NCBI RefSeq assembly: GCF_963921235.1
Contig: NC_086097.1
Location: 130,450,001 to 130,514,000, forward strand
Source: Mobula hypostoma
Taxonomy: Eukaryota
Direction: 5' to 3'
Length of the DNA stretch: 64,000 bases
This document shows, one piece after another, positions 811 through 59,652 of this stretch. Both the position numbers and the translations under genes were made by a program. The notes below the pieces were generated by a model. That model saw only the letters and a list, made by a program, of their open reading frames with translations. It did not search any database and had not been told where the DNA came from. How positions within the stretch are numbered: the stretch's first letter is position 1; every line of letters starts with the position of its first letter.

Positions 811-2428
811 AGATACAGCATGGTAACAGTCTCTTCACGTCCAAGGATCTCATGCTGCCCAATTACACCTGTAGAACTAATTAACCTACTAACCATTATG
901 TTCTTGGAATGAGACAGGAGGAAATCCACATGATCACATGGCACATTTGTGACAATATTTTCCCTCAACAAGCTGGGTGGAATTTGAGTGTGACTAATTC
1001 TTTATAAATATTCCTTAGATACAAATAGTTTGTTGCACACCAGAATGGAATTTGAGGTGTGGTCATATGGGATTGTTTGAGTGTAGCTCTGGGACTACAG
1101 ATAACAGTGGAAAAATCATGGCTAACTGACGCACAGAATTAAGTCTAACTGCATTAGTGAATGGAGTTCAGCAAAATCAAGGACAAAGGATGGCAGTGGA
1201 TATGGAAATCAAGGCTTGTACATGTCTATGGATGGTTTAGCAGTGGAAGCAGGAAGGAAGAGGATGGAAACAATCTGGTATCTATGAAGGCTTCAGTGAC
1301 AAAAGTCCAACCCTGGCTGACACGCATAACCTATTTCCTTTATATTAGAAGTCACACCTGCAAATAATAAAAGGTAATTATCAATTGAATAGTGTAATCT
1401 TGATTTTTATTCCACTCATGCAAAGTTCTGAAAAAGTTGGAGCATTTATGATGATTCTTTTTAACAACAATCCAGCCAATGGATTGACTGGGATTGTTTT
1501 CTTTAGAACAGAGAATGGTGAGGAAATATTTAATTGATGTGTTAAAGTTCTGAGATACCAATATATAGGAAATTAGAGAGGTCATATTTTCCAATAGGAT
1601 TAAAAATCAGGGGGTGAGGGGAGGCGTAGATTTCCGATAATTGATAAAAGGAGAATGACTATGAAAAGGACAAGAGGGTGGGTGAGGACAACCTGGTTCC
1701 CCCAAAGGTCACATGGAACTGGAACAGGGTGGGGAGGGGTTGATAGAGGCCTCGGCTGTCAGGATATACAAAAAATATTTGGATGCGTACTTGAATAGCA
1801 TGATATGTTGGGCAGTAGACCAAGAGATGGAAAGTGGGAGTACGTTAGGTAATTCTTTGTGAACAACCTGGTCACAGTGGGCTGATGGGCCTCGTATGCA
1901 TCCTAAATTTTCATGACAGAGTAATTAAGAATGATGGAAATTCATGAAAACTGTTGAAATATTTTTTAAATGTTGAGAAGATATGTGCCCTGCTAAGAAA
2001 ATATGCAAAAGGGGAGACGTTTGAGGCTCCAAGGAGTTTAACGAGTGTGACCAGAAGCTCAGGGTGAAGAGAACAGCTTTTTGTCAACATGATTACATAT
2101 TGTTTACAAATATCACCACGAAGCTGAATTTGTTGAGCATCATTGAATAACACAAAGTCTGAAACATGAACTCTGCTCCCCTCTCTGCAGATGCTGCTCA
2201 ATTGTCTGAGTATTTCTTGCATTTTCTGCTTTGTTTTCAATGCAGTTTTGAATTTCACTCTTCAAGTCATCAATTACTCGACAAGGTTTACTAGTTCAGT
2301 GTGAGACATTTAAAAATATATTTTAGATTCATAAAATCTGTAATAAATTTTGTTACTGTACTCCAAGGGAGTTCAAGCATCACATCATGGACAAGACTGA
2401 CAACACTACTATAACATATAATGCTGAG

Positions 2429-2544
2429 CAACATACACAAAATGCTGGAGGAACCCAGCATGATGCTGTCTGACCTGCTGAGTTCCTGCAGCCTTTTGTG
2501 TGTGTTGCTTTGAATTTTTGGCATCTACAGATTTTCTCGTGTGC
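2429..2544. mobile_element. Penelope-like (PLE) terminal mini-insertion with inverted arms
   Basis: Short arm caacatacacaaaatgctggaggaacccagca is inverted relative to the long arm ...cctgctgagttcctgcagccttttgtgtgtgttgc plus tail. Direct repeat ataatgctgag at 2418-2428 and 2545-2555. Confidence 0.75.
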
Positions 2545-2772
2545 ATAATGCTGAGATTTAAATCATGGATTAATGCGATCATATAATCACATTTCTTTTT
2601 CCTTGCACAATATGTAATGGAAACTAGTATAGAGTATTCATTCTTGAAACAATGATAGGTTAGATAGACATGGATTGTTAAAGGTAATAATTTGCTTTTA
2701 TAAATCCATCTAAAATAACTTTTTATGAAAAAATTCAGTAGTTCAAGCAAGTAGGTCAACCGAAGGTTAGAA

Positions 2773-9259: not shown

Positions 9260-11275
9260 CCCTGGAGAGTGAACCCATGGAAAGCGTCCAGTCCAGATGG
9301 GGTTCCTGGCTGAGTACTAAAGGCCTGTGCTAATCACCTGGCTGGAGTGTTCACTGATGTCTTTAACCTCTCTCTCTGGCAGTCCAAGGTACCCACCTGC
9401 TTCAAGCCAGTATCAATTATACTGGTTCTTAAGAAGAACATGGAAACCTGCCTCAATGATTATCATGCAGTATCATTTACATCCATTGTAATGAAATGCT
9501 TTGAGAGGTTGGTGATGAAACATCAACTTCTGCCTGAGAAGCGAATTGGATCCACTCCTATTTGCCTACCATCACAAAAGGTCCACAGCAGATGCCATTT
9601 CATTGGCATTTCACTCAACCCTGAAACATCTGGACAGCAAAGATGCATTTATCAAGATGCTTTTTATCAATTACAGCTCAGCATTCAATACCATTATCCC
9701 CTCAATACTAATCAATAAGTTTCAAGACCCTGGCCTCAAAGCCTCCTTGTGCAGCTGGATCCTAGATTTCCTCACCTGCAGACCTAAGTCAGTTTTCATT
9801 GGCAAAAACATCTCCTCCACAATCTCCATCAGCACAGGTGTACCACAAGGCTGTGCATTTAGCTCCCTGCTCTACACTTACGACTGTGAGGCCAAGCACA
9901 GCTGCAATGCCATATTTAAGTTTGCTGTCAACACCATTGTCACTGGCCGAATCAAAAGTGGTGATGAACCAGCAGATAGGAGGGAGATAGAAAATTTGGC
10001 TGATTGGTGCCACAACAACAACATCTCACTCAACGCCAGCAAGATCAAGGAGCTAACAATTGATTTCAGGAGAAGGAAACTGGAGGTCCTTGAGCCAGTT
10101 CTCATCGGGAGATCAGGCGTGCAGAGGGTCATCAAATTTAAATTTCTTAATGTTATCATTTCAGAGGATTTGCCCTGGGTCTAACACATACCAGCCATTA
10201 CAAAGAAAGCATGGCAGCACTCCTACTTCCTTATAAGATTGCAAGGATTCAGCATGACCTCTAAAACTGTGACAAGTTTCTATATATGTGTGGTGGAGAG
10301 TATGTTGACTGGTTGCATCATGGTCTGGTATGGAAACACCAAAGTCCTTGAAAGGAAAATCCTACAAAAAGTAGTGGATAAAGCCCTTCCCACCATTGAG
10401 CACATCTACATGGAGTACTGTTGCAGGGAAGGAGCATTCATCATCAAGGACCTCCCCACCAGACCATGCTCTCTTCTCACTGCTGCCATCAGGAAGAAGG
10501 TACAGGAACTTCAGTACTCACACTGCCAAGTTCAAGAACAATTATTAACCCTTAGCCATAAGGCTCTCGAATCAGTGGCGATAACTTCTCAGCTTCACTT
10601 GTTCCATCATTGAACTGTTCATGGACTCACTTTCAAGGACTCTTCATCTCATGTTCTTGATATTTATTGCTTTTTATAAAAAATCTTTTGTATTTGCACA
10701 GTGTGTTGTCTTTTGCACATTGGTTGTTTGTCCACCCTGTTGTGAAATCTTTCATTGATCCTAATATTTCAGAATCAGAATCAGATTTATTGTCACTGGC
10801 ATGTGACGCGAAATTTGTTAATTTAGCAGCAGCAGTTCAATGCAATACATAGTCTAGAAGAGAGTGAAAAAATAATAAATAAAATAAAACATAATAATAA
10901 ATAAATAAGTAAATCAATTACGTATATTGAATAGATTTTAAAAAATGTGCAAAACCAGAAATATTGTGTATTTTAAAAAAAGTGAGGTAGTGTCCAAAGC
11001 TTCAATGTCCATTTAGGAATCGGATGGCAGAGGGGAAGAAGCTGTTCCTGAATCGCTGAGTGTGTGCCTTCAGGCTTCTGTATCTCCTACCTGATAGTAA
11101 CAGTGAGAAAAGGGCATACCCTGGGTGCCGGAGGTCCTTAACGATGGACGCTGCCTTTCTGAGACACCGCTCCCTAAATTTCTTCAACTTATTGTGTATG
11201 CCCACAAGAAAATGAATCTCAGGGCTGTATATGGTGACCTATATGTACTTTGATAATATATTTACTTTGTCCTTT
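9260..11275 (+). mobile_element. Rex1/Babar-like LINE, 5'-truncated, degenerate RT
   Basis: ORFs 9347, 9546 and 10239 give VPTCFK...CLNDY...[45 protein letters not shown] and SMLTGCIMVWYGN across frameshifts. The 3' UTR is interrupted at about 10770-11176. Confidence 0.9.
10770..11176 (-). mobile_element. Younger Rex1-type 3' fragment nested antisense in the previous element
   Basis: ORF 11002..11205 reads CLRKAASIVKDLRHPGYALFSLLLSGRRYRSLKAHTQRFRNSFFPSAIR. Has a (TTCTGA)n tail and is closely similar to 23398-23786 and 32240-32652. Confidence 0.85.
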
Positions 11276-13056: not shown

Positions 13057-13109
13057 TATTCTAAGAACATTCTTTTTGGAAAAAGCAATTGCAATAATGA
13101 TTCACCTAC

Positions 13110-13799
13110 CATCATCCAGGTACAACTGGTCCAGTTCTTGAGGCTCTTGCTTCACTGTAACTTGCAAAGGAGTCAACTCCTGGCTGTTCTCCCCTGGGAT
13201 TGGTGGCATCATTGATGGACTAGATTGAGCTCCATTCCTTGGAGACTTTTGAGCTTGCTGTTGTTGTCCTCTTGCTGCAGAATTAGTTGGACTGAAGGGC
13301 TGCACGTAAGTCGCCTCTGGTGAAGCAGAAGGGCCTTGAGGAGAAAGATTGTTGGGATACAGGGCATGCTGGAAGCCATGGGAACAGCTGCTGCTGAGGT
13401 GCTGGCTCATCGGGGGCTGCATCAGGACATGTGCAGAGTGGGTGGGCGAAGTTGGATGGACAACAACCGACCTGTGCACTTCTGGAAGAGCGGGCACTGT
13501 TCGAGATTGCTGGTGACCAAGCTGAGTACTGGCTGTACCGCTGGTGCATTTTGCATAGGGGGCAGATGTAATGTCATGCTGTTTATGAACTGATGTAGGG
13601 GAGGATGACAACCCAGCGTTCCTCTGTTGACAAGAGGAAAAACTACTTACAAGGCAGGAACTAGGATCCTGTGTTATCTCGGGAGCCATGACTGGTTGAG
13701 GGTAGTAGGGTTGGGACAAGGGACTCATCCCTTGATTGAGCGATCCATAGATTAAGGGCGGTTCATAGTCATCGGCAGGTTCTGTTTTTATAACGGGAA
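13110..13799 (-). CDS. NFATC1: NFATC1 large C-terminal exon, 690 nt: (V)PVIKTEPADDYEP...VTVKQEPQELDQLYLDD
   Basis: Lies within ORF 13102..13827. ctctcctcAG|TT CCC GTT ATA AAA ACA GAA...CTG GAT GAT G|GTaggt. Matches recalled human NFATC1 VPIIKTEPTDDYEP, DPSSCLV and VTVKREPEELDQLYLDD. The G left by the previous exon plus TT gives Val in frame. Confidence 0.96.
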
Positions 13800-15852
13800 C
13801 TGAGGAGAGAGAGAGAAAACAGAGCAAGGTGAGAGATATTCATGTGTGGGTCTGCAACTAAGGTACTTTGCAAAATAAACATGATTCTCAGTTAATGACC
13901 TGAGTCTCCCACTCAGTAGAAATTGGATGAGTCAGGAGCACAAGAAATTCACAGCTCTTTTTCATATTGAAAGCACTATTTCTTTTGGAATCATCCTTAC
14001 CACAAAGCATAGTACATAAACACATTTTTACAGGCCTACATTGTAACAGAGGCCTGAAGTCCAAAGCCTCCACCAAATCACTTATATTATTCAGATTGAG
14101 TATTTTAAAATATGCATTCTTGGTAAAAGCGAGATGTGAAAAAAAACCATTGAAGACAATTGGTCAATGTCATTCATTCATCTGAAATTATTACAATGTT
14201 TCTATTATTGCTGTCAAGGCAGTGGAAGCAATTGAGATGACACGAAGGAACAGGAATTCACTTAAGTTAATGGAACTGTCTATTAGGAGGATTAATACAT
14301 CATAGCATACATTTAATATTTTTGAAAAGACCAATTAATTGACAACAAAATCCAGAATCTAATCATTCCATTTTAATTTTTGTCTGCAATTGTCCGTGTT
14401 TATTTTCCCTCTTCGACACTTTACAATCCGTTCTGTTCTATTATTGTTAGACATCAGCTGGTTTCCCTGACCAAGCACAACAGAGAATGGTTACAAGTTG
14501 CTTGAGTTTGGTTTTATAAATTAATTTTGGCTCCATTTCACCAGCTGTGGGATCAGGAGGAGTGCAGACCCTGAAGGAATGTAAATAGGCATTGTAAATA
14601 CTACTTACACAAAAATCTCAATGGTAACAATAAACTTGAAAAGGTGTGTGGAATTTTAATATTTAGTTTATACGAGCCTACTTTGCTTCTCAATCTTGTT
14701 TATTCCTGAGAGTAACCCCGATGTATTAGAAGCTCTCAGAATGTTTAGATATCTCTAAGCCTTCCTGAATTTCATAGTGAAAATAAACTAATAAATTGTG
14801 ACCTCATCTTCTTACTGCTTCCTGTCTTAAAGTGGGGTCAAGAATTTCCAGAGCTTATTAAACAATGCCATGCACTTATTAGTGAGTTTTCCCTTATGCC
14901 CACTACGTTAATATATTGTTTTCATATTATCATTTAAATAATTTAAAAACCTTCCTCCCTGTTCTGACTGACATATTCATCAGCTTCTAATCTGAAACCG
15001 AATTTGGACATCATTTAAGCTTGAGTTAACAAGAAAGCTTCCTTCATATTCTGTTTAATTTTCTCCCCCTGTATATCATGGGAACATCCCTTTCCACTAT
15101 TGGTAGTATGTACAGGAGGTGTTGCTCAATGAAGGCAAAATCGATCAGCAAAGATCTCTCCATGTGGGACGTGCCATCTTCTCACAGCTACTGTACTATC
15201 GGGCAAGAGGTACAGAAGCCTGAAATCCTATGCTACTAGGTTCAAAAACAACGGCTCCCCTTCAGCCATTTAATTCTTGAAACAACCAGAGCAACTCTAA
15301 TCACGAAAGCTCAGCGGCACTGTGATAATTACACTAATACGGACTTCTGTGGTTCATCATTCTGACTGCTCTTTCGCCTGAAATTTGTTTCATTTATATT
15401 TATGCTTTCTTGTGAGCAAACACAGTATGCCCACAAGAAAACGGATCTCGGGGCTATGCATGAGACATATATGTACTTTGATAGTAAATTTACTTTGTAC
15501 CTTTCCATGTGAATACTGCCTATATGATGCTCTGTGCCTGTGATACTGCTGCAAATAAGTTTTTATTATTACTGGCACATATGATAATAAATGTGTCCTT
15601 GAATAATCTACTCCTATAATAAAAAGGCTAAAATCCTTTCTTCCTGAACCAAAGGCTGAGTGCCCAGCCATCTTTGGCCTGGAGGTTACTGCACATCCCT
15701 TTCACAACACTATGCAGATAGTGGTAGTGGTGTCCCCAGACCAATCAGATACAAAACCCTATGGCTTTTACTACTCTCTTTCCCACAACTTCAAATAACC
15801 TAGAGTTAATTCTCCTAGTGAGAAATATTAATTATATAAATATATTGAAATG

Positions 15853-19885: not shown

Positions 19886-21199
19886 CAGTCTACATCCATC
19901 ACCTGGCATCAGTTGGAAAGAAGATGACTGTAAATGTCATCTGTGGATCAAAAGGTCCCACAAATAAATGGGTGTCTTTCTTTGTTTAAATCATTTATGG
20001 GAGGTGGTTATCACTAGCTGCACCGGCATTTATTTACCATCCTCTATTACCTTTGAGGCATTGACAGCAAGTTATTACCAGGAACCCTTGTAGACTATGT
20101 CATGAAGACACTTGACGTGAGGTGTTCATTCCAGCAGGCACTCGCTCTCTGCCTCCAGAGACTCAGAGATTCTGCAGATGCTGGAAATCCAGAGTAACAC
20201 ACACACACACCACAGGGTTCCAGTGTCAAATTCTGTCATTAAACATCAAATACTTTACACTAAAAAGACACACACAATCCTTTCTCAGAATATAGGACTT
20301 TAAAAATGCTTTTCATCAGCTGCAGATAGGACTGAAGATGCAGAAGGCATGGTGCTCCTTGTTAAAATACCATAGAAGACCTTCTCAGCAATTTGCTTGT
20401 CAGAATTCAGTAATGTTACTTCATTTTGGCACATTTTAATTTTAAATCTGCTTTTTATTTATTGAACTGCTACCTAGGAAGTGACACGTGATAATAAGCA
20501 CAATTAATTTTGTTTGTGAAGAGGCAGTTGCCTAAATCTGATGTCTGTAATAATATGCACCAATCATTTATCCTCACTACTGAATGGTCAGAAACTCTGT
20601 ACAGAGACTCGGAGTGAATAATCAAGTCTCAACGTATTTTTTGAGTAATGCAAGTCATATATTTCTTAATGCAATCCAGAAGTACATTAAAATGCCATCA
20701 GCCCTGATTGTTATTAATCTCACTACTGCTTCTCTTCAGTCTGCAGCTGAGACGGATCAGGTTTTCAAGTGTACAGACAATTTATGAGCCGTTAAATAGA
20801 TTCTGACACCATGAATTTCAGCCTTAGTCACTGCTGATTATTTTAAAGCAGCTTTACCTCATATTATACCCATAAAGTAACCATATCATTGAAGGAAATT
20901 TGTTGTTACTTTTGTCATCAGTTTTGTGACTTGCATCTTGTTAATATTTGAAGACCTGCTTAAGTGCCCATCTGAGACATTGGGATCAACTATTTTCTTG
21001 TTTATAATAATATTACCCAAGTTTGTTCTGCTTCCATCTATCCAAGCAGGATCAAAGGCTCCCTCTGGTGTCAAAGCCTCTTTGTACTGTCATATTACTA
21101 GTCACTGAAGACCAATTCCAGGGATGGGTGTGGTAAAAGAGAACATATCGCCATGACACTAGAATGGGCAATGCAAGCAACTTGGTAATGCTGAGGGAG

Positions 21200-21570: not shown

Positions 21571-21584
21571 CCTTACTTCAGAAA

Positions 21585-21752
21585 ATAAAATGGAAAATTT
21601 GGAAGTATCCAGCAAATCCAACAGAACCCATGAAAACTGAAATCTGGGTACATGCTTCAGGTTGATGACCTTTCATCAGAATTCATTTCAACTGCCTGAT
21701 CTGCTGAGAACTTTCAGCATTTTCTGTTTTACTGTAGGCTTCTAGCATCTGC
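21585..21752. mobile_element. Old inverted-arm PLE terminal remnant with a degenerate hammerhead
   Basis: Minus arm ttCTGATGAaaggtcatcaacctGAAG. Plus arm ctgcctgatctgctgagaactttcagcattttctg...ctagcatctgc. Confidence 0.6.
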
Positions 21753-22159
21753 TTTTGGACTTATCTTTCATTATAAGCCCAGATTTATACAGTATTGGAA
21801 AAATCTCTCACAATGCCCCATTCCAGTGTACTAAAGATTGCTCACACTTATTTTGCCAGCAGCCAGATCAGATACACATTCCCTTCACAACACCAATTCT
21901 TGTTGGTTTCATATTCTCCATCGGAGTTTTGTTACTTGTCCTATTGACCCTGAGGAGACAGATACTCAACGTATGATTTTGTGCAACTTATTTTTGCTAA
22001 GCATCTACGCTCCTTGTACCCTCTTATAGATCTTGGCAAGTGTGCCACAACATCTGTTTATTTTCTTCAGTGTTCTTTGCTTTTATTTATTTAATTTAAT
22101 TTCCCTTACATTTAGTATCTGATTACGTCAGTAGGAAATTTACCTCCCCACACAGAAAT

Positions 22160-26700: not shown

Positions 26701-27104
26701 ATAATAGCTACTGATCCATTGCCAAACCTGACTCCCACTAATCGCAGTACAGTCAGATAAAGAAGGCAAGAGCCCTAAAGAAAATTTAAACTAAACTCTT
26801 GAAGGGAATTATGCTCAGGCAGTGCCTTTCCTGAATACCTTTATTTTATTTTTTTGAAGGAGAAATGATTGGATTTTCAAAACAATTGGCCTCTAATTAC
26901 TTCACCTCATTGTCACTTATTTTGGTGATAGTTAAAATAAATGTACACTCTACTTGCTTAAAGGCATGAAACAGAGGAAAAAAGCAGGTACCTGGTGGTC
27001 ACAGATTATTTTCTGCCTGGAATTTGCTTAGAGAAGAGGCATGGACTAATTTCTAACACTACTGCTCTATATTGGAACAAAGTGTGGTATTGGTTTCTAA
27101 TAGC

Positions 27105-27925
27105 AGGGTTTGCAAGACGTTACTTCCTACGAAGGGAAACCCAATGGCATGAATTGCAGCAATGCTTCATTGCCAGATGAGCTCGACGCCTTTTATGGCC
27201 ACTTCGAAAGGGAGAATATAACTACAGCTGTGAAGATTCCTGCAGCACCTGGTGACCCTGGCATCTCTGTCTTCAAGGCCAATGTTAGGCTGTCTTTAAG
27301 GAGGGTGAATCCTCACAAGGTGGCAGGCCCTGATGGAGTACCTGGTAAAGCTCTGAAAATATGTACCAACCAGCCGGCAGGAGTATTCAGGGACATTTTC
27401 AACCTCTCATTGCTATGGTCGGAATTTCCCACCTGCTTCAAAAAGGCAACAATTATACCAGTGCCTAGGAGGAGTAGTGTGAGCTGCCTTAATGACTATT
27501 TCCCAGTAGCACTCACATCTATGGTAATGAAATACTTTGAGAGGTTGGTCATGGCTAGACTGAACTCCTGCCTCATCAAGGACCTGGACCCACTGCAATT
27601 TACCTATCGCCACAGTAGGTCGACAGCAGATGTAATCTCAATGGCTCTTCACATGGCCTTCAATCATTTGGACAATACAAACACCCATGTCAGGATGTTA
27701 TTCATCGACTATAGCTCAGCATTTAACACCATCATTCCCACAATCCTGATTGAGAAGTTACAGAACCTGGGCCTCTGAACTTCCCTCATAATTGGATCCT
27801 TGCCTTCCTAACTGGAAGACCACAATCTATGTGGATTGGTGATAACATCTCCTCGCTGATGATCAACACTGCTAAGTTAACAAATTTCAAAACACATGCC
27901 AGAAATAACAAACCTGGTTCTGAAT
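27105..27925 (+). mobile_element. Rex1/Babar-like LINE RT fragment with an internal deletion joining it to the 3' tail
   Basis: ORF 27110..27778 reads SLPDELDAFYGHFE...KVAGPDGVPG...FPTCFKKATIIPVP...LDPLQFTYR...[13 protein letters not shown]. Jumps at about 27870 to aagttaacaaatttc...aaacctggttctga. Confidence 0.9.
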
Positions 27926-28861: not shown

Positions 28862-28960
28862 CACACACAAAATGCTGGAGGAACTCAGCAGGTCAAGCAG
28901 CATCTATGGAGAGGAATAAACAGTCGACGATTTGGGCCAAGACCTTTCATCGAGACATCA
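28862..28960 (-). mobile_element. PLE terminal repeat with a degenerate hammerhead
   Basis: Minus strand gtc-tcGATGA-aaggtcttggccc-aAAt-cGTC-gact...gatgctgcttgacctgctgagttcctccagcattttgtgtgtg. The core is mutated. Confidence 0.75.
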
Positions 28961-29616
28961 GTTTATGATGAGCATACTTTGTTTAATCATAATTCATAAG
29001 ATCATGTACTTCTGTACCATTTTGTCAAAGCCAAACCAACATTTAAAAATTTTGACTCTGTTATTTGAAGAACTGGTTGATCAGATGAAGCAGATTTTTC
29101 CTGTATGGGTATTCATAAGACACTGCATAAGCCATCTGGAGAAAAATTTCTAGGCATATGGTACAAGCATAAGGGAACATAGATATCCAAAGAAGAAACA
29201 GTATTTAGGCACAGAGCAAAGGAAGGAAGAAGTGAGGTTAGCACTTGAGTCTTTAACTTTGGTACCAGCAGTGTACTTTGAAATCTGCAGGGAATAGAGA
29301 ATTGTAGAGTATAGGTAGAAAACAAAGAGCATGGATAGGGACATGGCATACAGTATGTGGATCCGTGAAGGACTATATTTTGAGCAAAAATGAAGGAAAA
29401 GCAAGAGCAATGTATGAAGGAAGGCATGGGTTCAGATATATAATTCTCTTCAAAGGCTTGATGCAAAGATTCTAGTTTCTGTCAAATTGGTCAGGACTGC
29501 AAGGCAGAGAGTTAAACATTGGTTAGACCATAATTTGATTGTTTTTTGCAGTTCAGAATGTTCTACTGATATAGAAGAGTAAAACTGTCCTCATCTTAAT
29601 GGTTATCCTTTCATCA

Positions 29617-29824
29617 GTAACATATAAAATGCTGGAGACAGCTGGTCAGACAGCATCTATGGGGAGAAATGGACAGGCAATGTTTTAGGTCAAGATCCTT
29701 CATCTGGACTGAGCTGAAATGTTTACCATCCATTTTGCTCCACAGATGTTGTCTGATCCACTGTATTCATACAGTATTTTGTAAGTTGCTCCAGATCTCA
29801 ACATCTGTAGTCTCTTGTGTCTCC
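29617..29824. mobile_element. Inverted-arm PLE remnant with a degenerate hammerhead
   Basis: Minus arm agtc-CaGATGA-aggatcttgacct-aAAA-catt. Plus arm ctgaaatgttt...cacagatgttgtctgatc with tail ccagatctcaacatctgtagtctcttgtgtctcc. Confidence 0.65.
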
Positions 29825-31019
29825 ATCTTTAGGTTAGTTCCTGGTTCATAGAACCTGAGCTGTGATGAGATGTTGAGACCTCAAAATCAAATGTTAATAA
29901 GGAAGTCAGTCAAATCAGGGTATCTCTGCAGGATTTTTGAAAGAATTGCCAGTTAACCTCCTCTTCCCTCACCCTAAACCTTATCTCTCAAATACTTCCT
30001 TTCTAGTTCCAGATTTATTCAGCTTCTGTTACTCTTTCTGGCCGTGTATTTCCAATTGCAGCATTAAATAAACACTCATCCTAAGTCACCCATTTAAGAT
30101 AAATCTTGGGTTGTTCTTAACTCTGAGTCATCTCTGGAATTCATGAAGTCCAGCCTTAACTGTAAAGGGTATGGAGTAAAAAGTAGGGAACTCTGATGTA
30201 ACTTTACAGGATGCTGGTGAGACTGAACCTGGGGGACAACACACAGTTTTGGCTTTCACTTTAAGGAAGGATACACATTCAAAGAGGCAGTGCAGAAAAA
30301 AAAAACTCTTAGGTTGATTCATGTAACAAAGAGGGTTGATGTATGAAGAGTGATTGGATAAGTTGAGCTTAAACCCATTGATATTTAGAAGAATGAATTG
30401 TAGTCTCACTGAAACATAGACTCTGAGGGGAACAGGCAGGCCGGATGCTGAGAGTGTGTTTCCTCAAACAAAGGTATTGGTAACTTGGGTCAGAGTTTCA
30501 GAATAGTGGCTTTCTGATTTATGATAAGCAATTCTCCTCTCAGAGGGTCAGTACTCATTGGAATTTGTAGTGAGCTGTAGGGACAAAAGCATTGAATATA
30601 TGCAAGGTAAAGTCACACAGATATTTGAACTATACTATAGTCAATGAGTATAGAGAGAATGGGGAACTGCAATTGAACCCTAGATCCGAAGCAGCCACGA
30701 TCTTATTGAATGGAAGAGCAGGCTCATTCCTATTCTGTTTTCTGAGACTTTAATAATCTTAAATCCACATCCTCTGGTACCAACCCATCTATCATTTCAA
30801 ATAGTTGCTTCTATTTTATTCTATCTGAATTCATAATATTCTATCATGAGGCAGAGATAAGATGTTGCCAGAGGGCAGTTTCCTCTCGCTCATTGGCTAA
30901 AAAAACTTAATTTCTCCACTTAATGTTTCTTTCTTTTCCTTTTCAAGGTAGATGGAGTTCTGTCAGAGTTGGGGATCTACAGCTGCATTCAGACTGCAGT
31001 TCTTTACAGTGATGGTTCC

Positions 31020-37026: not shown

Positions 37027-38417
37027 AATGCATCAATTAAGGAAGAATATTGAGGCCTAATAGCTATTTATCAGGGACTGGCCTTATTCAATCAGGCTCC
37101 ACTTTAACAATGAAATTAATCAATTTTATGAAGTTTTAAAGTTATTTATAATTCTTACAGATTAGGGAAAGTTCCGCTAGCAAGTACATAACAAATTAAA
37201 ATGATCGCTACATCAGTCGGGGCACCATGAAGAGATTTTTATTTTTATTATCCATAAGGTTGTCAGAGCCCAGAATGTTTTACCACAAGGGCGGTTGTGG
37301 CAGAAACCATTGCATTCTTTATGAAAAAAATGGATAAATATTTGAAGCGTAAGATTCGTGACGGGGATTTTATTTTGGACAGCTCTTGTGAAGTCTGTAT
37401 TGTCACAGGAGAAGCAGTTTCATTCCTTCCTCCCTTCAAAGATGCAATTAATTTCAAGTTTGTATATTCCCATTAAAGTTCAAATAACACTTTCCTTCTG
37501 GCAAAGGGAAACTTAATTAAGAAGTTTACGATTTTTTCCTTGAAAAAAACATGCCTTACTGGCCAAGATGTGAGTAACACTTAAAACATTTTTCCACTAT
37601 TGACCCAATGGAAACTCAAACGTATATTTTGTTCAGTCTGACACTGTGCCCATTCCAAGGTGTCTGGGTGGACATCTCTCACTTTTGAAATCAGAAACAA
37701 CATTTCTAATGGAGTAACAGCTACTTATCCTTGATGCGTCGGTAATTGGTTCTATGTGTCATGAGAGCTTATGTTAGAATCGCTTGAAGCCAACAGATCA
37801 CCGTGATTGTTTTTACCTGGCCCAGGAACGTCAACAGTTAGCTATGGAGCAGCTTAAGTCCTGGTGAGAGTGTTGATCTTTAATCAAGTCTTCCATTCTT
37901 TCTGAATCTGAATTATAGTGGGATCTATAAAAACTGTGTGACTCCCTCCCACCCTACCTTATTAAATAAAGCTAACACTCTGGGTGTTGACATTACACTA
38001 TTCAATTTCCATCAATAAGAACATGTACTGCTGATTTATTTTGCCACACAAAGCCAGACCACTGCTTCATTTTCTGAAAGAATTCTCCTAACCTCCTTGG
38101 CAGAACTGCAATAGAATCCTCTGAAGAAATAAAAACTGTAGGCTGTGTACATGGATATTGGGATCCATGTAGAAAGCAATCCAGGAAAGCAGGTTAAAAT
38201 AAGAACATGTCAGCTCCCTGTGGCTTTAAAATGGCTTTCCATTTTTTTTTGCAGGGAACCCTTTACTGCTAAATACAGCCACATTTATGAGCAACAACTT
38301 AGTTGAAATTCAGTTTCTAGATAAAAATTGCCTGCAATGTCACTTCCCCACAAGCAAACACAATCTGCTGCCAATCCACCAGCCTAACTCCCGTAAATAT
38401 TATGGCTTCTGAATTTA

Positions 38418-38615
38418 GGCACAAGGGATTCTGCAGATACAGGGAATCTTGAGCCACACACACAAACTGCTGGAGGAACTCTGCAGCTCAGGCAGCATCT
38501 GTGGAGGGAAATGAGTGGTCGACATTATGGGCCATGACCTGTAATGTCAACTCTTCACTTATCTCCATAGATGCCTCTTGACCTGCTGAGTTCCTCCAGC
38601 ATTTTGTGTGTGTGG
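38418..38615. mobile_element. Inverted-arm PLE mini-insertion
   Basis: Left arm with tail (acaagggattctgcagatac...cacacacaaactgctggaggaactc) is inverted to the right arm (...gagttcctccagcattttgtgtgtgtgg). Flanks ggcttctgaattta (38404-38417) and ggtttgtgaattta (38616-38629) are 12/14 identical. Confidence 0.75.
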
Positions 38616-39711
38616 GGTTTGTGAATTTATTGGTCTCAGTCATCACCCCACCCCCTGATTATTTCAAAGAACAATTAGGAGTCTGCATGTACTGTTTCTT
38701 AGAAACAAAGCACAAAAGCGATTGGTTTAAAAATTATGGTTATTTCAAGTGCACGTGTTTGTGGTATTACACTAAGACACAAAGGGCCTTGTTGATCACA
38801 GCCGAGCAAATCCTAGCCTGCAAATTTTAGTTTGAATAAAAACTTTCAAGCTGAGAGTTGGGGTTCAGTGGGTTGGGGGCGGTAACTGAACTCCTGATTG
38901 GGGCTTGTGCAGCGGTTGACAGAGAGAGGGGAGGATTGAGACTGGTTTCAGATCAGAGAAGGAGAAGGACTGTGACTGCTACCTTGGATTGGAAAGTGCT
39001 GGGGTGGTAGAATGTTTGATGCAAGAAGGCTTATGATCCAGGAGGAGGGAAAGAGAGCCACAGAGTCAACGTTGGCCCGTGATACGGGAGGATAACTTTG
39101 GACTGTAGCGAATCATTTTGGACAATGTTGAGGTGAGAGTAGGTGGTGAATGGGCGAATGTCAGATCAACCCATTCCAAATCCCCATATAATCCTCCAAA
39201 AGGAAGGCAGAGGCTGACTTCATCACGTGGCCTTCTAATATGCAGAGGTTCCTCACACCCTGGCATGCCAAATTAAATTTTAAGAAAGAGATGAACTGAC
39301 AAGGAAATTGTCACCATTGTATTTCACTCCATTATATACTGCCTTTGAATTGGTAGCAGTAAAAGAGAGAAGTACTGTGCAATTGATTCTCAGGGCTGTA
39401 ATGTCTTTAGGTTGGTGGGCGAGGAACAGTGTTTCTGCTCGTGGGCAAGTGACATTACATGCAACATCAAATTGGTAAATTAGTATATTGTTCTCATATG
39501 TACAGAGATACAGCAGAAAGCTTGTCCTGCATACTATCTATGCAGATTCAATTCATTGCAATGGCACATTGAGGTAGCAAAAGGTAAACCCATAACAAAG
39601 TGCAGAATAAAGTACAGAGATAATGCTGTGCTGGTAGACAGGAAGGTGCAAGTTTATAACAAGATAGATTGAGAGCCAAGAGTCCATCTTATCATCTCCA
39701 TCTCATCCAGT

Positions 39712-40703: not shown

Positions 40704-42540
40704 TATACAATAATCTTATAATTGAGGATAGAAACTGTTCTTGAGCCCTGTAGTACATTCTTTCTGGTTTTTTCTTATCTTCTATCTGATAAAAAGGGGG
40801 AAATTAGAGAATGTCCAGGGTGGGTGGGATCTTTGATTATGTCAGCTACTTTACTGAAGCTGTAAGAAGTGTAGACTGACTCCATGGAGGGGAGACTAGT
40901 TTTTGAGATGTGCTGAGCTGTGTCCACAACTCTCTGCAGTTTCTTGTGGTCATGGGGAGAGCTGCTGCCATACTAAGGATACTCCTTATGGTGACTGATA
41001 CCCAGAATTAGGATTGCACCTAATGTTGGTGCTTTAATACACCTTATTTAGCACTAACTGTTTCCTTAGAAATAAAATACAAAGTTTTCAAAAACAGCCT
41101 GAAATGTTGGGGTGGATTGCATCCAGAAACAAAGTATAAAACAGGACATCTGGAAATCCCATTAGACCCTGCTAAACTGCATGCATCTCCTGACACTTCT
41201 GGAATAACTACTGAAGAAGGGCATCAACGCAGTCCCCATGGCTGCCATGGAAGAGAATGTGGTTGCCTATTCGGGGGAGGAGTCTATTCTGCAACTATAC
41301 AATTGAATTGTGATTCCTGGTCAACAAGGCACTGCAATAGGAAGGGCTGATGCACTGTGCAGGGTTGAGAAACGGCCAGAAGATCTGCCAGTCCCACCAT
41401 GTGAAGAGGCTCCAGTAGTCTGTTCCAGCAGTAAGAAACACCACACGAGGAAGCAATGCAGAAAGAAATTGCATGCCCTCCAGGATGTTTCAGGAAGAAC
41501 CCAAGTCTTTACACCTCTAGGATGGAAATTTTCACAAAAATATGTTTTATGCAGGAGTCTGTGATCCGGGAGTGTTTCCATACTTCAAAAGATGCGGAGA
41601 TATATAGAGATCACAGATCTGTTCATGTGTGTTATAAGCAGTGCAGGTGGAACTGCAAAGCAGGTGTGCAGGATTATTGCTTATCATCCATTTGATCTCC
41701 AGTGTACCATACTGGTGTTGAGGATTATGTTGTGAAGTGGGTCACTGTTTATATTGGGATACATTATTTTACAGGCTTATTAGCAGAAGGTCTCCTCGTT
41801 TCTGGTGCTCTCCGTGATCTGCTTGAAGTCCCTCAAACATCGAGTCTCCTATCTGTCCTTCTGTCTGCAGCTACATCAGGCAGTTTGCTAGACTATGTAG
41901 CAGTCGCCATGGGTGTGAACTTAGTGTGACTTGCGAGGCACCTCCGGATGACTGTAGTCAACAAGATCTCAACTTTAAGAGACCTATGGCATTGTGAAAT
42001 CACATAACACAGGAACAGGCACTTTGCTTCACCGTATCCATGCTGACTGTCAGGTACCTATTGATACAAAATGTCTGCCCAGGGATAGACCATTTAACCC
42101 ACGATGTCATGCCAAATTAATTATACCTAATCCCTTCCTTGAACATAGTCGATGTTCCCCTAATCTCTGCACATTCATGTGCCTAAGAACCTCCTAAGTG
42201 CCTCTATTGTACTTGTCTCCATCAGAACCCCTAGCAGTGCATTCCAGGCACCCACCACTTTGTGTGTAAAAACTTGCACCGCACGTCATCTTGTCACCTA
42301 CAATGCATTCCTTTCTGCGTTAGGTATTTTGACCCTGGGAAAATGATACCGACTGCCCAAATGCCTACTCTATCAGTGCCTATCATAATGTTCTAAAGTT
42401 CTAACAAGTCTCCCCTCAGGCTTCGCCGCTCCAGAGAAAACAACCATAGTTTGCCCCACCTCCAAATTGATGATGTACATGGTTCTTTTAATATCTGTGT
42501 TCAGCTGCTGTGGTTCAAAACTGTACTGCATTAAGGTGAC

Positions 42541-44643
42541 ACACATCAAAGTTGCTGGTGAAAGCAGCAGGCCAGGCAGCATCTCTAGGAAGAGGTACAG
42601 TGCTGCGTTCACCAGCAACTTTGTTTTTTTTTAATTTTATTTTTATTTGGATAAGGAATTCACAATTATCATGTACTTTTTTCACACATATAACCTTTTC
42701 CATTTTTTTATATGTATAAAACTACAATTATTTATACATTCTTAAGTACACATTGAGATGATATAAAAGGAAAATAAACATTTAAATAGATAATTATGTA
42801 CTGTGGTAAATCTAACCTATTAGGCTAAGTAATGAAATTAGTTGTTAAGAAAAATGGTAATAATAGTTTCCATACAACCCTCTGGACCATTTCCACTGGT
42901 CCAAAATGTTGCATACAAGCCTATATACCAACCATTGTAGGTGTTTATATCCCAATTTGTTCGTGCTTGTTCCTGCCCACAGACATAATTATCCAATCCC
43001 TATGTACTTATTTACTTAATTTTTTCATTTTTTTTTATCCCTTTCCCAAATCTTTCCCTTTACTTGTGTTAATTCTCTATTTTCCAAAAAAAAACAAACA
43101 TTTAGACTAGGGGTGCTTACGTTAGCAATATTACTGTGTTGATGAGAAGAGCAATATAAATCATTAGGAGAGTCATCTAAAGTCTGCTCGCATTGGGGTT
43201 ATATATTCAATCCATTTATTCCAGATTTGATAAAATGTTTCTTTTTGAGTTCTCAGGGAGTAAGTCAACTTTTCCATTTTAAATATTTCCAAGATAATTT
43301 CATACCAATCTTCTAATGTAGGTGGTATTGGATTTAGCCATTTTCTAGTGATTGATTTCTTTCTTGCCGCTAAGAGGGCCTGCAGCAACTTTATATCTTC
43401 CTTCTGTTCAAGGAACAATACATGCCCCAAATAGAGCGTCTCAAAGTTCAGAGGTATCTGGGACCTAAGTACCTTAACTAATGTTCTATGAATACCTTCC
43501 CAAAATAGACTTAATTTAGGGCAATCCCAGAAAATATGAAAATGATTTGCCTCCTTGGAGCCGCACCTTCTCCAACACATCACATTTGTATCTTTATATT
43601 TTTCCTGATATGGGGTCTTGAAGTATCTTATAATGTTTTTCCAACAATGCTCTCTCCAAGTCAAAGAATTAGTCGAGGACCATTGAAAGCAGCAGATTTT
43701 CCCCCAAGCCTCCTCTGAAAGTACCAACCCCGCTTCTTTCTCCCACTTCTCTTTAATATACAGTGTATTTACATTTTTAGCATGGGAGAGTGCATTATAT
43801 AGGCGAGAAACTGATTTACTAGGTATTGAACTGCAAGCCAAATTCAGAATCTTGAAAAATTCTAATTCTACTGTTGATAGGTCTGTATATCTACAACTCT
43901 GGTTAACATAGTTTCGTATTTGAAGGTACCCAAAAAAGTCATTATGTTCTAGGCCATGTTTGTCCTGCAGGATTTGGAAACTTTGTAATACTCTTTTATC
44001 TATAAATGAGAGGTAGGTTGTAAGACCTTTCTTTATCCATAGCTCAAATCTTTTATCTCCTCTGTTGGGAAGGAATTCGGTATCATATGCACACCATCTA
44101 AAGAGTTTTAACATGTTATTAATTCCACATGAATTAACCACCTTCTGCCATACTTTTAATGTAAGATTTATCCAAGCATTATTAAATTTTTCCAACTGGG
44201 CCATCAATCCTTTGTCAGCTATTGAGGCCTGAAGAGGAAAACTGTCAACTAATCCAAATTCTATTTCCTTCCATCTAGCCTTATATTCCCTATTACACCA
44301 ATATAACAGAGGGGTTATCTGTGAGGCATAAAAATAATTTCTCAGGCAAGGAAGAACCATACCTCCTCCTTCCTTCCCTAACTGTAAGGTGTTATATCGA
44401 ATTCTAGGTTTCCTTCCTTGCCAAATGAAGCGGGAAATCCATTTGTCCCATTCCCTGAATTGATTATCATCCACCTCCACTGGTAAAGTACGGAAAAGAT
44501 ATAATAACCGAGGAAGAATATTCATTTTTATAGTATTTATCCTTGAATTTAAACTTAAAAAGGGGATAAGATTCCATCTGTGCTCACCAGCAACTTTGAT
44601 GTGTGTTGCTTGAATTTCCAGCATCTGCAGAATTCCTGTTGTT
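42541..44643. mobile_element. Young inverted-arm PLE mini-insertion (about 130 bp) split by an L1
   Basis: Left arm 42541-42600 is inverted to the right arm (42601-42623 plus 44599-44643). Perfect 14 bp direct repeat tgcattaaggtgac at 42527-42540 and 44644-44657. Nearly identical to 58726-58890. Confidence 0.88.
42624..44583 (-). mobile_element. Young 5'-truncated L1-clade LINE (1.96 kb)
   Basis: Open ORF2 C-terminus, about 550 bp 3' UTR, AATAAA twice and A9 on the minus strand. Perfect 15 bp TSD tcaccagcaactttg at 42609-42623 and 44584-44598. Confidence 0.93.
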
Positions 44644-44648
44644 TGCAT
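43173..44648 (-). pseudogene. L1 ORF2 C-terminal region (about 470 open codons) with a fortuitous in-frame ATG and about 21 aa from flanking PLE/TSD sequence
   Basis: LSLNSRINTIKMNILPRLLYLF, FIWQGRKPRI..LQL.KEGGG..LP and the CCHC knuckle CWRRC...HFHIFWDC are typical of fish-type L1 ORF2. The endonuclease and RT core are absent. Confidence 0.88.
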
Positions 44649-45539
44649 TAAGGTGACTCCATTTCATTCCATCAGATGCTTCATAGATTGGTATGGCAAC
44701 TATTCTGCCCAGATTACGAGAGGGAGTTTTGGGCATAGCTCAACACATCACAAGAATTGGCCTCCCCTCCATGGACTCCGACTACATTTCTCACTGCCTT
44801 GATAAAGTAACACAACAAAGCCCACACCAACCCCAGAAATTCTCTCTGCTCCCAATTCCACTGGGCAGAAGGTACAAAAGCACGTACCATCAGGCTCAAG
44901 GACACTGTAGGTCCTGCTGTTATAAAAGAATTGAATAGTCGCCTTGTACAATATGATGGACTTTGACTTCACAAAGTTTTTCATTGAACAGCATTACATA
45001 TGACAATCACCAATTTACAAAATACACTGCCTGGGTGATCAAAGCCGCAATGAGAAAAAAACAGAGAAACATGGCAGATCCATGTGGTCAAGAGAAGGTG
45101 AGGAGGTTGAAGGCCGAGGTGAAACTGAGCATTGACTTCCAGAGACAGAACAGACCAAGCACCATTGTGAGATTGAAGACTTTGCCCTGAACGGCACACA
45201 ACTTTGCAGTGACAGACTGGGGAAGTCTGAGACTCTACAGCACATTGTCCAACAGAGAGGGCCTTGGAGCAACGGACAATCTACTGAAGTAACTCAGTGG
45301 ATCAAGCAGCATCAATTGTTCCTTTCCTCTCATAAATTCTATGGGTGGAATCCTGCATCAAGCTTGGGAGGATGTGGTAACTCCAAGTCCTCTGGGAGAA
45401 GGATTTTCACTGCCCTTGCCTCCTGCTTACAATCCCTGGCACTCCCTGAGTTTTAACGCATTGTTGTAATGATGATTTCAGTCATGTACAGTTGACAGGG
45501 GTGTCAGTTAAAAAGCAAACCTAAATCTACTTGGCGTCT

Positions 45540-46184: not shown

Positions 46185-46349
46185 CGAGGGGTGATTGATA
46201 AGTTCGTGGCCTACAGTAGAAGGAGATGAGTTATACAGCTCTCGTTACATACACGTGCAGTTCAACTCCTTGATTGATTATACAGAAAGTTTGAAGTTAA
46301 TAACTCATCTCCTTCTACCTTACGCCACGAACTTATCAATCACCCCTCA
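46185..46349. mobile_element. Mariner-type MITE, 165 bp
   Basis: About 50 bp TIRs cgaggggtgattgataagttcgtggc...gagatgagttat / ataactcatctc...gccacgaacttatcaatcacccctca. TA at 46183-46184 and 46350-46351. Interrupts a minus-strand CR1 remnant (about 45920-46680). Confidence 0.9.
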
Positions 46350-57496: not shown

Positions 57497-58725
57497 CCGA
57501 CTGACCACCCCTTCTGCATGAAAAATTTGCCTTTAAGGTTCCTATTAAATCTCATTCCTCTCACCTTAAACCTATGCCAAGCTGTTCATAATTCCTCAGC
57601 CACTGGAAAAAGATCGTGTGCATTCACCCTACCTGTGCCCTCAGAATTTTAAAACTGTACCTCTATAAGATCACTCCTCAATTTCCTATATTCCTATAAA
57701 AATATCTCAACATGCTCTATCACTTTTCATAATCCAGCTCATTGAGTCTTGGCAACATTCTTGTAAATCTCCTCTGCATTCTTACCATCTTAAGACCATA
57801 AGATATAAGACCAGAAGATATAGGAGCCTTTAGCCTATGAGTCGGCTATGCCATTTTATCATGGCTGATCCATTTCCCTCTCAGGCCCAATCTTAATGGC
57901 ATTTTTCCTTTAGTAGGTTGACTAAAACTGAACACAATATTCCTAAAGCTGCTTCATCAATGTCTTGGATCAAAAATGAATGCTTCAAGATCTCCTGCCA
58001 TAGCCCAGTATAGTCATGGCTTTTAACTAATGGATCTCAAAAGTGAACAGAATTTCATGCATGACATCTTAACAAGCATAATGAGTGGCATCTGACATAA
58101 TTATTGCGCTCAGTGGCCTCTGTACAAAATAGGTTAGAACTAATTAAGTTAACACCCCCTTTTGCAATTTCAATGGAGAAGATGGAAATCAGCTGGAGTG
58201 TACTGAAGCACTTGCAAACAAATCCATAAATTGCATATTAAACTGTGCAGGACATTGCACAGAGTAATGATGGTGATCATCAGACATTATTAAGACAATT
58301 ACTACGACAAACCACAGCGGGTCTGTCATTTTTTTGGTCTAAATCTTCCTTATCTTTTTTCCTAGGGTAGGAATGTTGCTAGAGAACATGCATTTCTACA
58401 TTTTACACCGAGTGTGGTAAATGCTTAGAAAAGGGTGCAGGGAGAAGTGATGGAAGCAGACAAAACTCTGGCATTTAAGACACATGAATATGCAAGGATT
58501 GGAGGAATATCTACAGGCAGAAGAAAACTAGTTTAGTTCGGCATCATGTTTGGTATGAGAATTGTGGGCTGAATGGAATGTTCCTATCCTGTACTGTTCT
58601 ATGTTCTCATAAAATAATCTACTCCTCATGATTCCCAATAGAACGGCTTATTTTGTTCGTTAGTTATGTATTTAAGTCAAAATCTTGATAAATTTTTTTG
58701 GTCGATCAGTTTATAATTAACAGTG

Positions 58726-58890
58726 CAAACAACAGGAATTCTGCAGATGCTGGAAATTCAAGCCACACACATCAAAGTTGCTGGTGCAGTTAGTCCTGAC
58801 GAAGGGTCTTGGCCTGAAACGTCGACTGTACCTCTTCCTAGAGATGCTGCCTGGCCTGCTGCGTTCACCAGCAACTTTGATGTGTGTTGC
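58726..58890. mobile_element. Young inverted-arm PLE mini-insertion carrying a hammerhead ribozyme
   Basis: Reverse arm 58726-58786 (with tail) plus forward arm 58787-58890. Perfect 14 bp TSD tataattaacagtg at 58712-58725 and 58891-58904. Confidence 0.9.
58792..58827 (+). ncRNA. Minimal type I hammerhead ribozyme motif
   Basis: AGUC-CUGACGA-AGG(GUCUUGG)CCU-GAAA-C-GUC/GACU. Full catalytic core, stem I AGUC/GACU, stem II AGG/CCU and a loopless palindromic stem III ACGU. Predicted cleavage after 58823. Confidence 0.85.
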
Positions 58891-59005
58891 TATAATTAAC
58901 AGTGTCTTGGCAGGCTAGGCTGGTGACATGTACTTGGCTTCACTTTTAAAAATAAGGTATTAATATCGATTTCTTTTAAGTGGACACAAGATATGGACAC
59001 TGCCG

Positions 59006-59098
59006 GCAACACACACAAAATGCTGTAAGAACTCAAGAGGTCAGGCAACATCTATGGAAATATATAGTCGATGTTTTGGGCTAAGACCCTTCATCAAG
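59006..59098 (-). mobile_element. PLE terminal repeat with a degenerate hammerhead
   Basis: Minus strand tTGATGA-agggtcttagccc-aAAA-cATC-gact...gatgttgcctgacc...cagcattttgtgtgtgttgc. Confidence 0.75.
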
Positions 59099-59109
59099 GG
59101 GGGCAGGGG

Positions 59110-59652
59110 TAGACCACTCTTCAAGTATTGTGAATAGTTTTGGGCCCCTGATCTAAGAAAGGATGCGCTGTCTTGGAGAGGGTCCAGAAGAGGTTCACAA
59201 AAATTATCCTGGGAATGAAAGGGTTAACATATGAAGAGCTTTTTATGGCTCTGGTCCTGTACTCACTGGAATTTGGAAGAATGAGGGGGATCTCACTGAA
59301 ACTTATTGAATATTGAAAGGCCTAGGCAGAGTGGATGCAGAGAGGATATTTTCTATACTGGAGGACCAGAAGCCACAGACTCAGAATACAACCATGTCCC
59401 TTTAGACTAGAGATGAGGAGGAATGTGGTGAGTCTGTGGGATTCAATGCCACAGACAGCTGTGGAAGCCAAGCTAATGGGTATATTGAAAGCGGAGAGTG
59501 ATAGGTTCTTGATTAGTATGGGCTTCAAAGGTCACAGGGAGAAAGCAGGAGAATGGGGTTGCGAGGGATAATAAATCAGCCATGGTAAAATGACAGAACA
59601 GACTCAATGAGCCAAATCGCCCAATTCCGCTCCTGTGATTCATGCTCTTATG
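59110..59652 (+). mobile_element. CR1 LINE 3' fragment
   Basis: LERVQKRFTKIILGMKGLTYEE..MALVLYSLEFGRMRGDL, followed by the CR1 tail. Confidence 0.85.

What the first reader, a model, noticed from the sequence alone, without database searches (positions are those of the whole stretch)
58712..58904. Family of tiny inverted-arm Penelope-derived insertions with about 14 bp TSDs and a one-sided tail
Seen: at least four independent insertions (2429-2544, 38418-38615, 42541-44643 and 58726-58890) share one architecture. Each has two copies of the element's 3' end pointing outward; one arm carries an extra ~35-40 nt tail (...gaatttccagcatctgcagaattcctgttgtttg) and the other stops near ...gtgtgttgc. 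Flanking direct repeats are 11, 14 (2 mismatches), 14 and 14 bp, while the internal junction differs each time. Known: PLEs often have inverted pseudo-LTRs and a short 3' tail. Inference: each is the product of two target-primed reverse transcription events, one from each nick of a ~14 nt staggered GIY-YIG cut, starting at two preferred template positions. They look like MITEs but are retro-products, and give an unusually clean mechanistic record.
Basis: partly seen in the sequence, partly recalled or inferred. Interest (0 to 1): 0.7.

Follow-up and report, generated by a model that had tools for sequence, protein, structure and literature searches.

The report
Stump-sized Penelope retroelement inverted insertions
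These small hairpin-like insertions are truncated ends of a Penelope-type retrotransposon in a ray-like fish, laid down in the already described "inverted copy, one-sided tail, target duplication" pattern, so they are real but mostly ordinary.

Summary
58726-58890 has two outward-pointing arms, a 36-nt tail on one arm only, and a perfect 14-bp direct repeat. A related organism lacks the element and keeps one repeat copy, plus 9 unexplained extra bases. The other three named copies check out.

Corrections: 42541-44645 is mostly a later LINE-1 insertion. A fifth copy (29616-29823) has a gapped repeat of about 23-26 nt, so the duplication is not fixed at 14. Seven of 13 window loci are single-armed.

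The arms carry a minimal hammerhead motif and are 5'-truncated pieces of a longer, very abundant repeat. That fits Penelope-like pseudo-LTR ends; the autonomous RT/GIY-YIG partner was not found.

Inverted arm, one-sided 30-40-nt tail and short TSD are published. So are two RT start sites bounding the tail and cutting plus extension of both strands. In 3 of 5 copies each arm holds sequence the other lacks, which argues against simple fold-back and for two priming events (inferred). One tail in 5 of 5 hints the two start sites are used in a coupled way. The scan noted the same pattern in two shark genomes.

The parts
58712..58725 (+). Copy A: left target-site duplication (14 bp)
   Evidence: single copy retained in organism D contig
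58726..58761 (-). Copy A: 36-nt tail on the left arm
58762..58786 (-). Copy A: rest of left arm, 5'-truncated
58787..58890 (+). Copy A: right arm, 104 nt, no tail
58792..58827 (+). Minimal type I hammerhead motif (4-bp helix I, CUGAnGA and GAAA boxes, no helix III)
   Evidence: features from PMC4209133; no Rfam hit
58891..58904 (+). Copy A: right target-site duplication
42527..42540 (+). Copy B: left 14-bp duplication
42541..42601 (-). Copy B: left arm, no tail
42602..42623 (+). Copy B: 5' part of right arm
42624..44583 (-). Secondary 5'-truncated LINE-1 insertion with poly(A) and 15-bp duplication (42609-42623 / 44584-44598)
   Evidence: human L1 ORF2p, E 5e-21
44584..44645 (+). Copy B: 3' part of right arm with tail
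44644..44657 (+). Copy B: right 14-bp duplication (first 2-3 nt shared with the tail end)
2418..2555 (.). Copy C: 11-bp repeats 2418-2428 / 2545-2555; left arm 2429-2460 without tail, 1 extra base, right arm 2462-2544 with tail
38404..38629 (.). Copy D: 12/14 repeats; left arm with tail 38418-~38540, right arm ~38538-38615; junction with ~3-nt overlap in hammerhead helix II
29592..29849 (.).
21575..21755 (.). Old, probably two-armed copy of a related subfamily; left arm weak (E 0.34), no repeat found; outer limits by eye
28862..28956 (-). Single arm, no tail, no flanking repeat
59006..59098 (-). Single arm of older subfamily, no flanking repeat
20164..20207 (-). Single very short arm, mostly tail

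Best explanation
These are heavily 5'-truncated insertions of the 3' end (pseudo-LTR region) of an endonuclease-bearing Penelope-like retrotransposon. Shown here: insertion with target duplication, outward-facing 3' ends, two end-point clusters about 36 nt apart, variable 5' truncation and junctions. Inferred: the RT/GIY-YIG protein nicks both target strands with a stagger of roughly 11-25 nt (mode 14 in this small sample). Each 3'-OH primes reverse transcription, one at the distal start site (arm with tail) and one at the proximal site (arm without tail). Both cDNAs abort after 35-125 nt and are joined by end-joining with 0-3 nt of overlap; fill-in gives the duplication. Single-armed copies would be events where only one priming was productive, or decayed copies.
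For: Empty site: an organism-D contig of 296 nt runs 58579-58725 then 58906-59043 without the element, while organisms A and B carry both junctions (table 8). Tailless arm ends fall at reference positions 100-105 and tail ends at about 136-141. In A, B and E the tailless arm reaches further 5' than the tailed arm, so neither arm can be a copy of the other. Contigs from other loci continue upstream of 58787/58792 in a shared pyrimidine-rich sequence (agreement 0.63 at 58787) and end in heterogeneous flanks just past the tail (agreement 0.4), so the arms are pieces of a longer, abundant repeat (21,179-97,489 records laid per run). The hammerhead motif matches PLE minimal hammerheads; its cut site lies 25 nt from the ATG-equivalent against 26 in the anole element. 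That protein cuts and extends both strands and starts at two sites bounding the tail (PMC11167929). Same layout with 8-10-bp TSDs in rotifer Penelope (PMC3846280).
Against: No autonomous RT/GIY-YIG element sharing these ends was found, so the enzyme is assigned by layout and hammerhead only. The empty site is 9 nt longer than a clean one (10 letters, not shown by the tool, where 1 is expected) and rests on one sample. C and D have nested arms that fold-back explains equally well, and D's junction lies in a hairpin. A loose hammerhead pattern is met by chance in 58 of 100 shuffles, Rfam gave 0 hits, and the arm folds no better than shuffles (z 0.84). Only 5 resolved two-armed copies; 7 of 13 loci are single-armed.
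Confidence: 0.62

Rival explanations
1. One priming event plus fold-back (self-priming): the first cDNA turns back on itself or on an antisense template and copies the second arm; later deletions at the palindrome centre blur the nesting.
For: Proposed for junction palindromes in rotifer Penelope (PMC3846280). D is a near-symmetric palindrome centred in hammerhead helix II with ~3-nt overlap; C is nested.
Against: A, B and E have mutually exclusive arm content, and A and B are young (arms 97-100% alike). Fold-back gives no reason for the copy to stop at one site 36 nt short of the tail in 5 of 5 copies and 2 single arms.
Confidence: 0.2
2. A pre-formed palindromic non-autonomous master (retrozyme- or SINE-like) is transcribed and retroposed as a unit.
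For: Very abundant family; non-autonomous PLE-derived hammerhead elements exist in vertebrates (bioRxiv 10.64898/2026.07.22.740005).
Against: A and B have near-identical arms but different junctions and arm lengths. Retrozymes in that paper are head-to-tail tandems, not inverted.
Confidence: 0.08
3. Two independent single-arm insertions into the same spot, or later recombination or gene conversion, build the inverted pairs.
For: Single arms are common (7 of 13 loci); the anole protein cleaves its own pLTR junction in vitro.
Against: One repeat pair encloses both arms with no inner duplication; the arms of one copy share subfamily variants; the 6 single arms tested show no flanking repeat.
Confidence: 0.07
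4. MITEs of a cut-and-paste DNA transposon.
For: Short, inverted ends, flanking direct repeats, high copy number.
Against: Ends are asymmetric, lengths and junctions vary, repeats are 11 to about 25 nt, single arms occur, and a longer upstream sequence exists. A MITE-type element in the same window (46185-46349) has symmetric ends and a TA duplication.
Confidence: 0.03

Closest known systems
Complex insertions of EN+ Penelope-like elements: inverted pLTR plus one-sided tail plus TSD (Adineta Pen2a/Pen3a, PMC3846280; PMC8557442 Fig. 2; D. virilis Penelope, PMC2377424)
   Same: 5'-truncated inverted copy flanking the insert, 30-40-nt tail usually at one end only, short variable TSD, empty site with one repeat copy.
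   Different: Here both arms are cut to 35-125 nt, so no ORF or direct pLTR pair remains; repeats are 11 to about 25 nt against 8-10 in the rotifer examples.
Poseidon element of Anolis carolinensis (PAc), PMC11167929
   Same: Hammerhead upstream of two RT start points that bound a tail; both strands cut and extended in vitro.
   Different: Different sequence (the start region is AC-rich in PAc, GT-rich in sense here); ends at about +92 and +128 from the ATG-equivalent against a stem-loop at +111-118. The text I read does not treat inverted products, stagger length or coupling of the two sites.
Minimal hammerheads of metazoan PLEs (PMC4209133)
   Same: Core boxes, extra base before helix II, palindromic 15.2-16.2, short helix I; mostly on truncated copies; pairs 100-700 bp apart on opposite strands were noted in Schistosoma.
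   Different: Rays are not mentioned in the parts read; G10.1-C11.1 is G-U in copy A.
LINE-1 twin priming (recalled, not read)
   Same: Both target strands prime cDNA, giving an inversion inside one TSD.
   Different: In L1 the inverted part is an upstream, non-overlapping piece; here both arms start at the same 3' region and overlap.
Non-LTR retrozymes (bioRxiv 10.64898/2026.07.22.740005)
   Same: Short non-coding hammerhead elements derived from PLE pLTRs.
   Different: Head-to-tail tandem arrays, not inverted pairs with a tail.

Membership tests
EN+ Penelope-like element | Single ORF with telomerase-like RT and GIY-YIG endonuclease linked to these ends | tested here: inconclusive
   No GIY-YIG family among 86 window frames of 85 aa or more (2 RVT_1 hits, not adjacent to arms). 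One protein search gave 1 hit among 9 candidates, an arm piece at the N-terminus of a Mobula gene model. No whole genome held.
EN+ Penelope-like element | Minimal hammerhead in the pLTR region | tested here: met
   58792-58827 has the features listed in PMC4209133 and is echoed in arms E, F and G. The loose pattern alone is not above chance; activity untested.
EN+ Penelope-like element | Optional 30-40-nt 3' tail | tested here: met
   36 nt in A and B; similar in C, D and E; one arm only in 5 of 5.
EN+ Penelope-like element | 5' truncation and inverted truncated copy | tested here: met
   Arm 5' ends range over reference positions 1-90; shared upstream sequence in other loci.
EN+ Penelope-like element | Variable-length target-site duplication, single at the empty site | tested here: met
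   11, 14, 14, 12/14 and gapped 23/26 nt; empty site for A in organism D with one copy and a 9-nt excess. The other four copies were not tested for empty sites.
EN+ Penelope-like element | Partial-tandem pLTR-ORF-pLTR organisation and clade (Poseidon, Neptune) | not testable with these tools
   No long copy in hand.
MITE (class II) | Symmetric terminal inverted repeats, uniform length, fixed TSD | tested here: not met
   Asymmetric ends; 116-208 bp without the L1; repeats 11 to about 25 nt.
Non-LTR retrozyme | Tandem head-to-tail units each with a hammerhead | tested here: not met
   All paired arms in the window are inverted; none tandem.

The most novel reading that the evidence does not exclude
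The two RT start sites of Penelope-like elements are used in a coupled, asymmetric way within one insertion: a protein dimer primes one target strand at the distal site and the other at the proximal site, possibly on one RNA. Tail-plus-no-tail pairs would then be near-obligate and the duplication length would record the dimer's reach. Five of 5 resolved copies have exactly one tail (3% or less under independent choice, a post hoc count), and ray genomes would hold a very large natural sample. I did not find this coupling stated in searches (open-access library only).
Probability: 0.35. Interest if true: 0.55.

Novelty: new member of a known kind. Interest (0 to 1): 0.3.

Why it matters
How Penelope-like elements form inverted arms, tails and second strands is called unresolved in PMC8557442 and PMC11167929. 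Stump-sized copies keep both ends, the junction and the duplication within about 200 bp and are very abundant in these genomes, so they are a cheap dataset for choosing between double priming and fold-back. They also matter for annotation, because they can be mistaken for MITEs. The structure itself is not new.

Tried and rejected
Whole-genome census: impossible, no genome held. Exact-motif scans: 0 in viral contigs and 0 in metagenome contigs. A shorter 19-nt motif gave 48 metagenome loci; the best profile score among them was 14.9 bits, essentially the motif itself, so they were treated as chance. Rfam at gathering threshold: 0. Folding of the arm: no excess stability. Protein link to an autonomous element: only an exonised-looking piece; weak evidence of absence. 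The top joints (58756-58761 to 59005-59012) are read as contigs of other, older tailed copies split between two arms of the stretch, not as deletions; 527 joints and 1781 loose-end rows were not shown. Summed depth was not used as copy number. A fixed 14-nt stagger was rejected on C and E. The locus at 26474 (E 0.95) is counted among the 13 but is doubtful and was not tested for repeats. Search of the scan's notes by sequence found nothing. The supplementary PDFs of PMC11167929 held almost no text and its .gbk file could not be read; they may bear on tail and inversion details.

Full report
**Setting.** No whole genome was available, so the work rests on the window, contigs of related sequencing runs, and papers. 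The host looks like a ray: a Mobula birostris gene model carries 20 of 22 residues of one reading frame of the arm at its N-terminus. I do not claim the species.

**Observation.** Copy A is as described: a 14/14 direct repeat at 58712-58725 and 58891-58904, a 61-nt left arm on the minus strand with a 36-nt tail, a 104-nt right arm without tail, and a blunt junction. Edge-anchored repeats of A, B and C were matched by 0 of 1983 random pairs and D's by 6 of 1983. A laxer gapped test is weaker for C and D (95 and 199 of 5000).

**Corrections to the observation.** B is mostly a later LINE-1: the frame at 43176-44663 matches human ORF2p at E 5e-21 and has its own 15-bp duplication inside B's right arm, leaving about 130 bp of this family. 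A profile of 13 arms gave 20 hits at 13 loci and none in the reversed window. Six loci are two-armed (one weakly) and seven single-armed; the six single arms tested have no flanking repeat. A fifth clear two-armed copy, E (29616-29823), has a gapped 23/26-nt repeat abutting both arms (15 of 5000; not significant ungapped). Repeat lengths are therefore 11, 14, 14, 14 and about 23-26.

**Empty site.** I laid 4 of 19 listed runs on 57950-59120. Organisms A and B have contigs across both junctions of copy A. In organism D (two runs, one sample) a 296-nt contig aligns to 58579-58725 and then 58906-59043, with 10 letters between that the tool did not show. The element and the second repeat copy are absent, so the repeat is a target duplication. 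A clean empty site would leave 1 letter, so 9 nt are unexplained. An independent indel is possible (D shows several nearby), but its position next to the site is suspicious.

**A longer, abundant parent.** The same call laid 21,179 to 97,489 records per run, nearly all on the arms. Loose ends show a shared pyrimidine-rich sequence upstream of 58787-58792 and heterogeneous flanks (agreement about 0.4) within about 3 nt of the tail end. Behind 58891 there is a mixture of tail and flank. Only 24 of 1805 loose-end rows were shown. Depth at 58870-58909 is about 650 in D against millions in A and B, which suggests the A/B subfamily expanded after D split (summed depth, not copy number).

**What the arms are.** 58792-58827 has the features of the minimal hammerhead of metazoan Penelope-like elements (PMC4209133, parts 1-2 of 4 read), and helices I and II form in the predicted fold. 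Taken alone this is weak: a loose pattern occurs in 58 of 100 shuffles, the strict pattern (0 of 100) was tailored to this copy, and Rfam reports nothing. It gains weight from its recurrence in arms E, F and G and from its position upstream of two end points. Tailless ends fall at reference positions 100-105 and tail ends at about 136-141; 5' ends scatter from 1 to 90. The autonomous partner was not found, so membership rests on layout and hammerhead, and the clade is open.

**Mechanism.** Shown here: duplication, outward 3' ends, two end clusters, per-copy junctions. In A, B and E the tailless arm reaches further 5' than the tailed arm, so each holds sequence the other lacks. A single cDNA folding back cannot give that without a later one-sided deletion. 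C and D are nested, and D's junction sits in helix II with about 3 nt of overlap, which fits either fold-back or annealing of two cDNA ends. From the literature: the anole Poseidon protein cuts and extends both strands and starts at two sites that bound the tail (PMC11167929, parts 1-2 of 4 read). Inferred: two priming events from staggered nicks, early abortion, end-joining (0.62). Fold-back, proposed in PMC3846280 (passages), remains the main rival (0.2). A MITE reading fails; a MITE-type element with symmetric ends and a TA duplication lies at 46185-46349 for contrast.

**Comparison with what is known.** Inverted truncated arm, tail at one end and short TSD with a verified empty site are described in PMC3846280 (passages), PMC8557442 (passages and one section), PMC8969392 (passages) and PMC2377424 (passages). 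Very short 5'-truncated PLE insertions (median 128 bp) were seen de novo in Chlamydomonas (PMC9977147, passages). Opposite-strand hammerhead pairs 100-700 bp apart were noted in PMC4209133. Retrozymes (bioRxiv 10.64898/2026.07.22.740005; part 1 of 5 and passages) are tandem, not inverted. LINE-1 twin priming is recalled, not read. Two earlier notes of this scan report the same pattern in shark genomes; they are unchecked and I use them only as context.

**What may be new.** Exactly one tail in 5 of 5 resolved copies is expected in 3% or less of cases if each arm chose its start site independently (small, post hoc). Coupled use of the two sites in one event was not found stated in searches of an open-access library that lacks most subscription papers; the one-sided tail itself is descriptive common knowledge.

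**Verdict.** A real feature and a new member of a known kind. Interest 0.3.

Noticed in passing
window 42624-44583: 5'-truncated LINE-1 (about 2 kb, one 496-codon open frame) inserted into the right arm of copy B with poly(A) and a 15-bp duplication; dates B as older than this L1 copy.
   Followed up: partly
window 58905 versus organism D contig: The empty site has 10 letters where 1 is expected after the single repeat copy; polarity and cause unknown.
   Followed up: partly
window 46185-46349: MITE-type element: about 50-nt terminal inverted repeats, 92% complementary, TA on both sides (Tc1/mariner-like by recall).
   Followed up: partly
loose ends at 58725-58727, 58891, 59006: Flank consensus is A-rich before minus-strand arm ends and T-rich behind plus-strand ends, i.e. 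T-skewed downstream of the element's 3' end in three organisms; may reflect a strand-biased target preference. Not evident in the window's own five copies.
   Followed up: no
P0001 residues 3-24: A Mobula birostris coenzyme A synthase gene model begins with a translated piece of this arm: exonisation or an annotation artefact.
   Followed up: partly
window 13105-13839 (minus): A 245-codon Ser/Pro/Gln-rich frame that looks like a host exon (NFAT-like by recall only; no Pfam or PDB match).
   Followed up: no
window 9519-10181 and 27104-27775: Reverse-transcriptase fragments (PF00078) of other LINE-type repeats, not adjacent to the arms.
   Followed up: no
window 21575-21755, 2157-2245, 8265-8345: Older related arms with a different 3' end sequence, suggesting several successive subfamilies.
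   Followed up: partly
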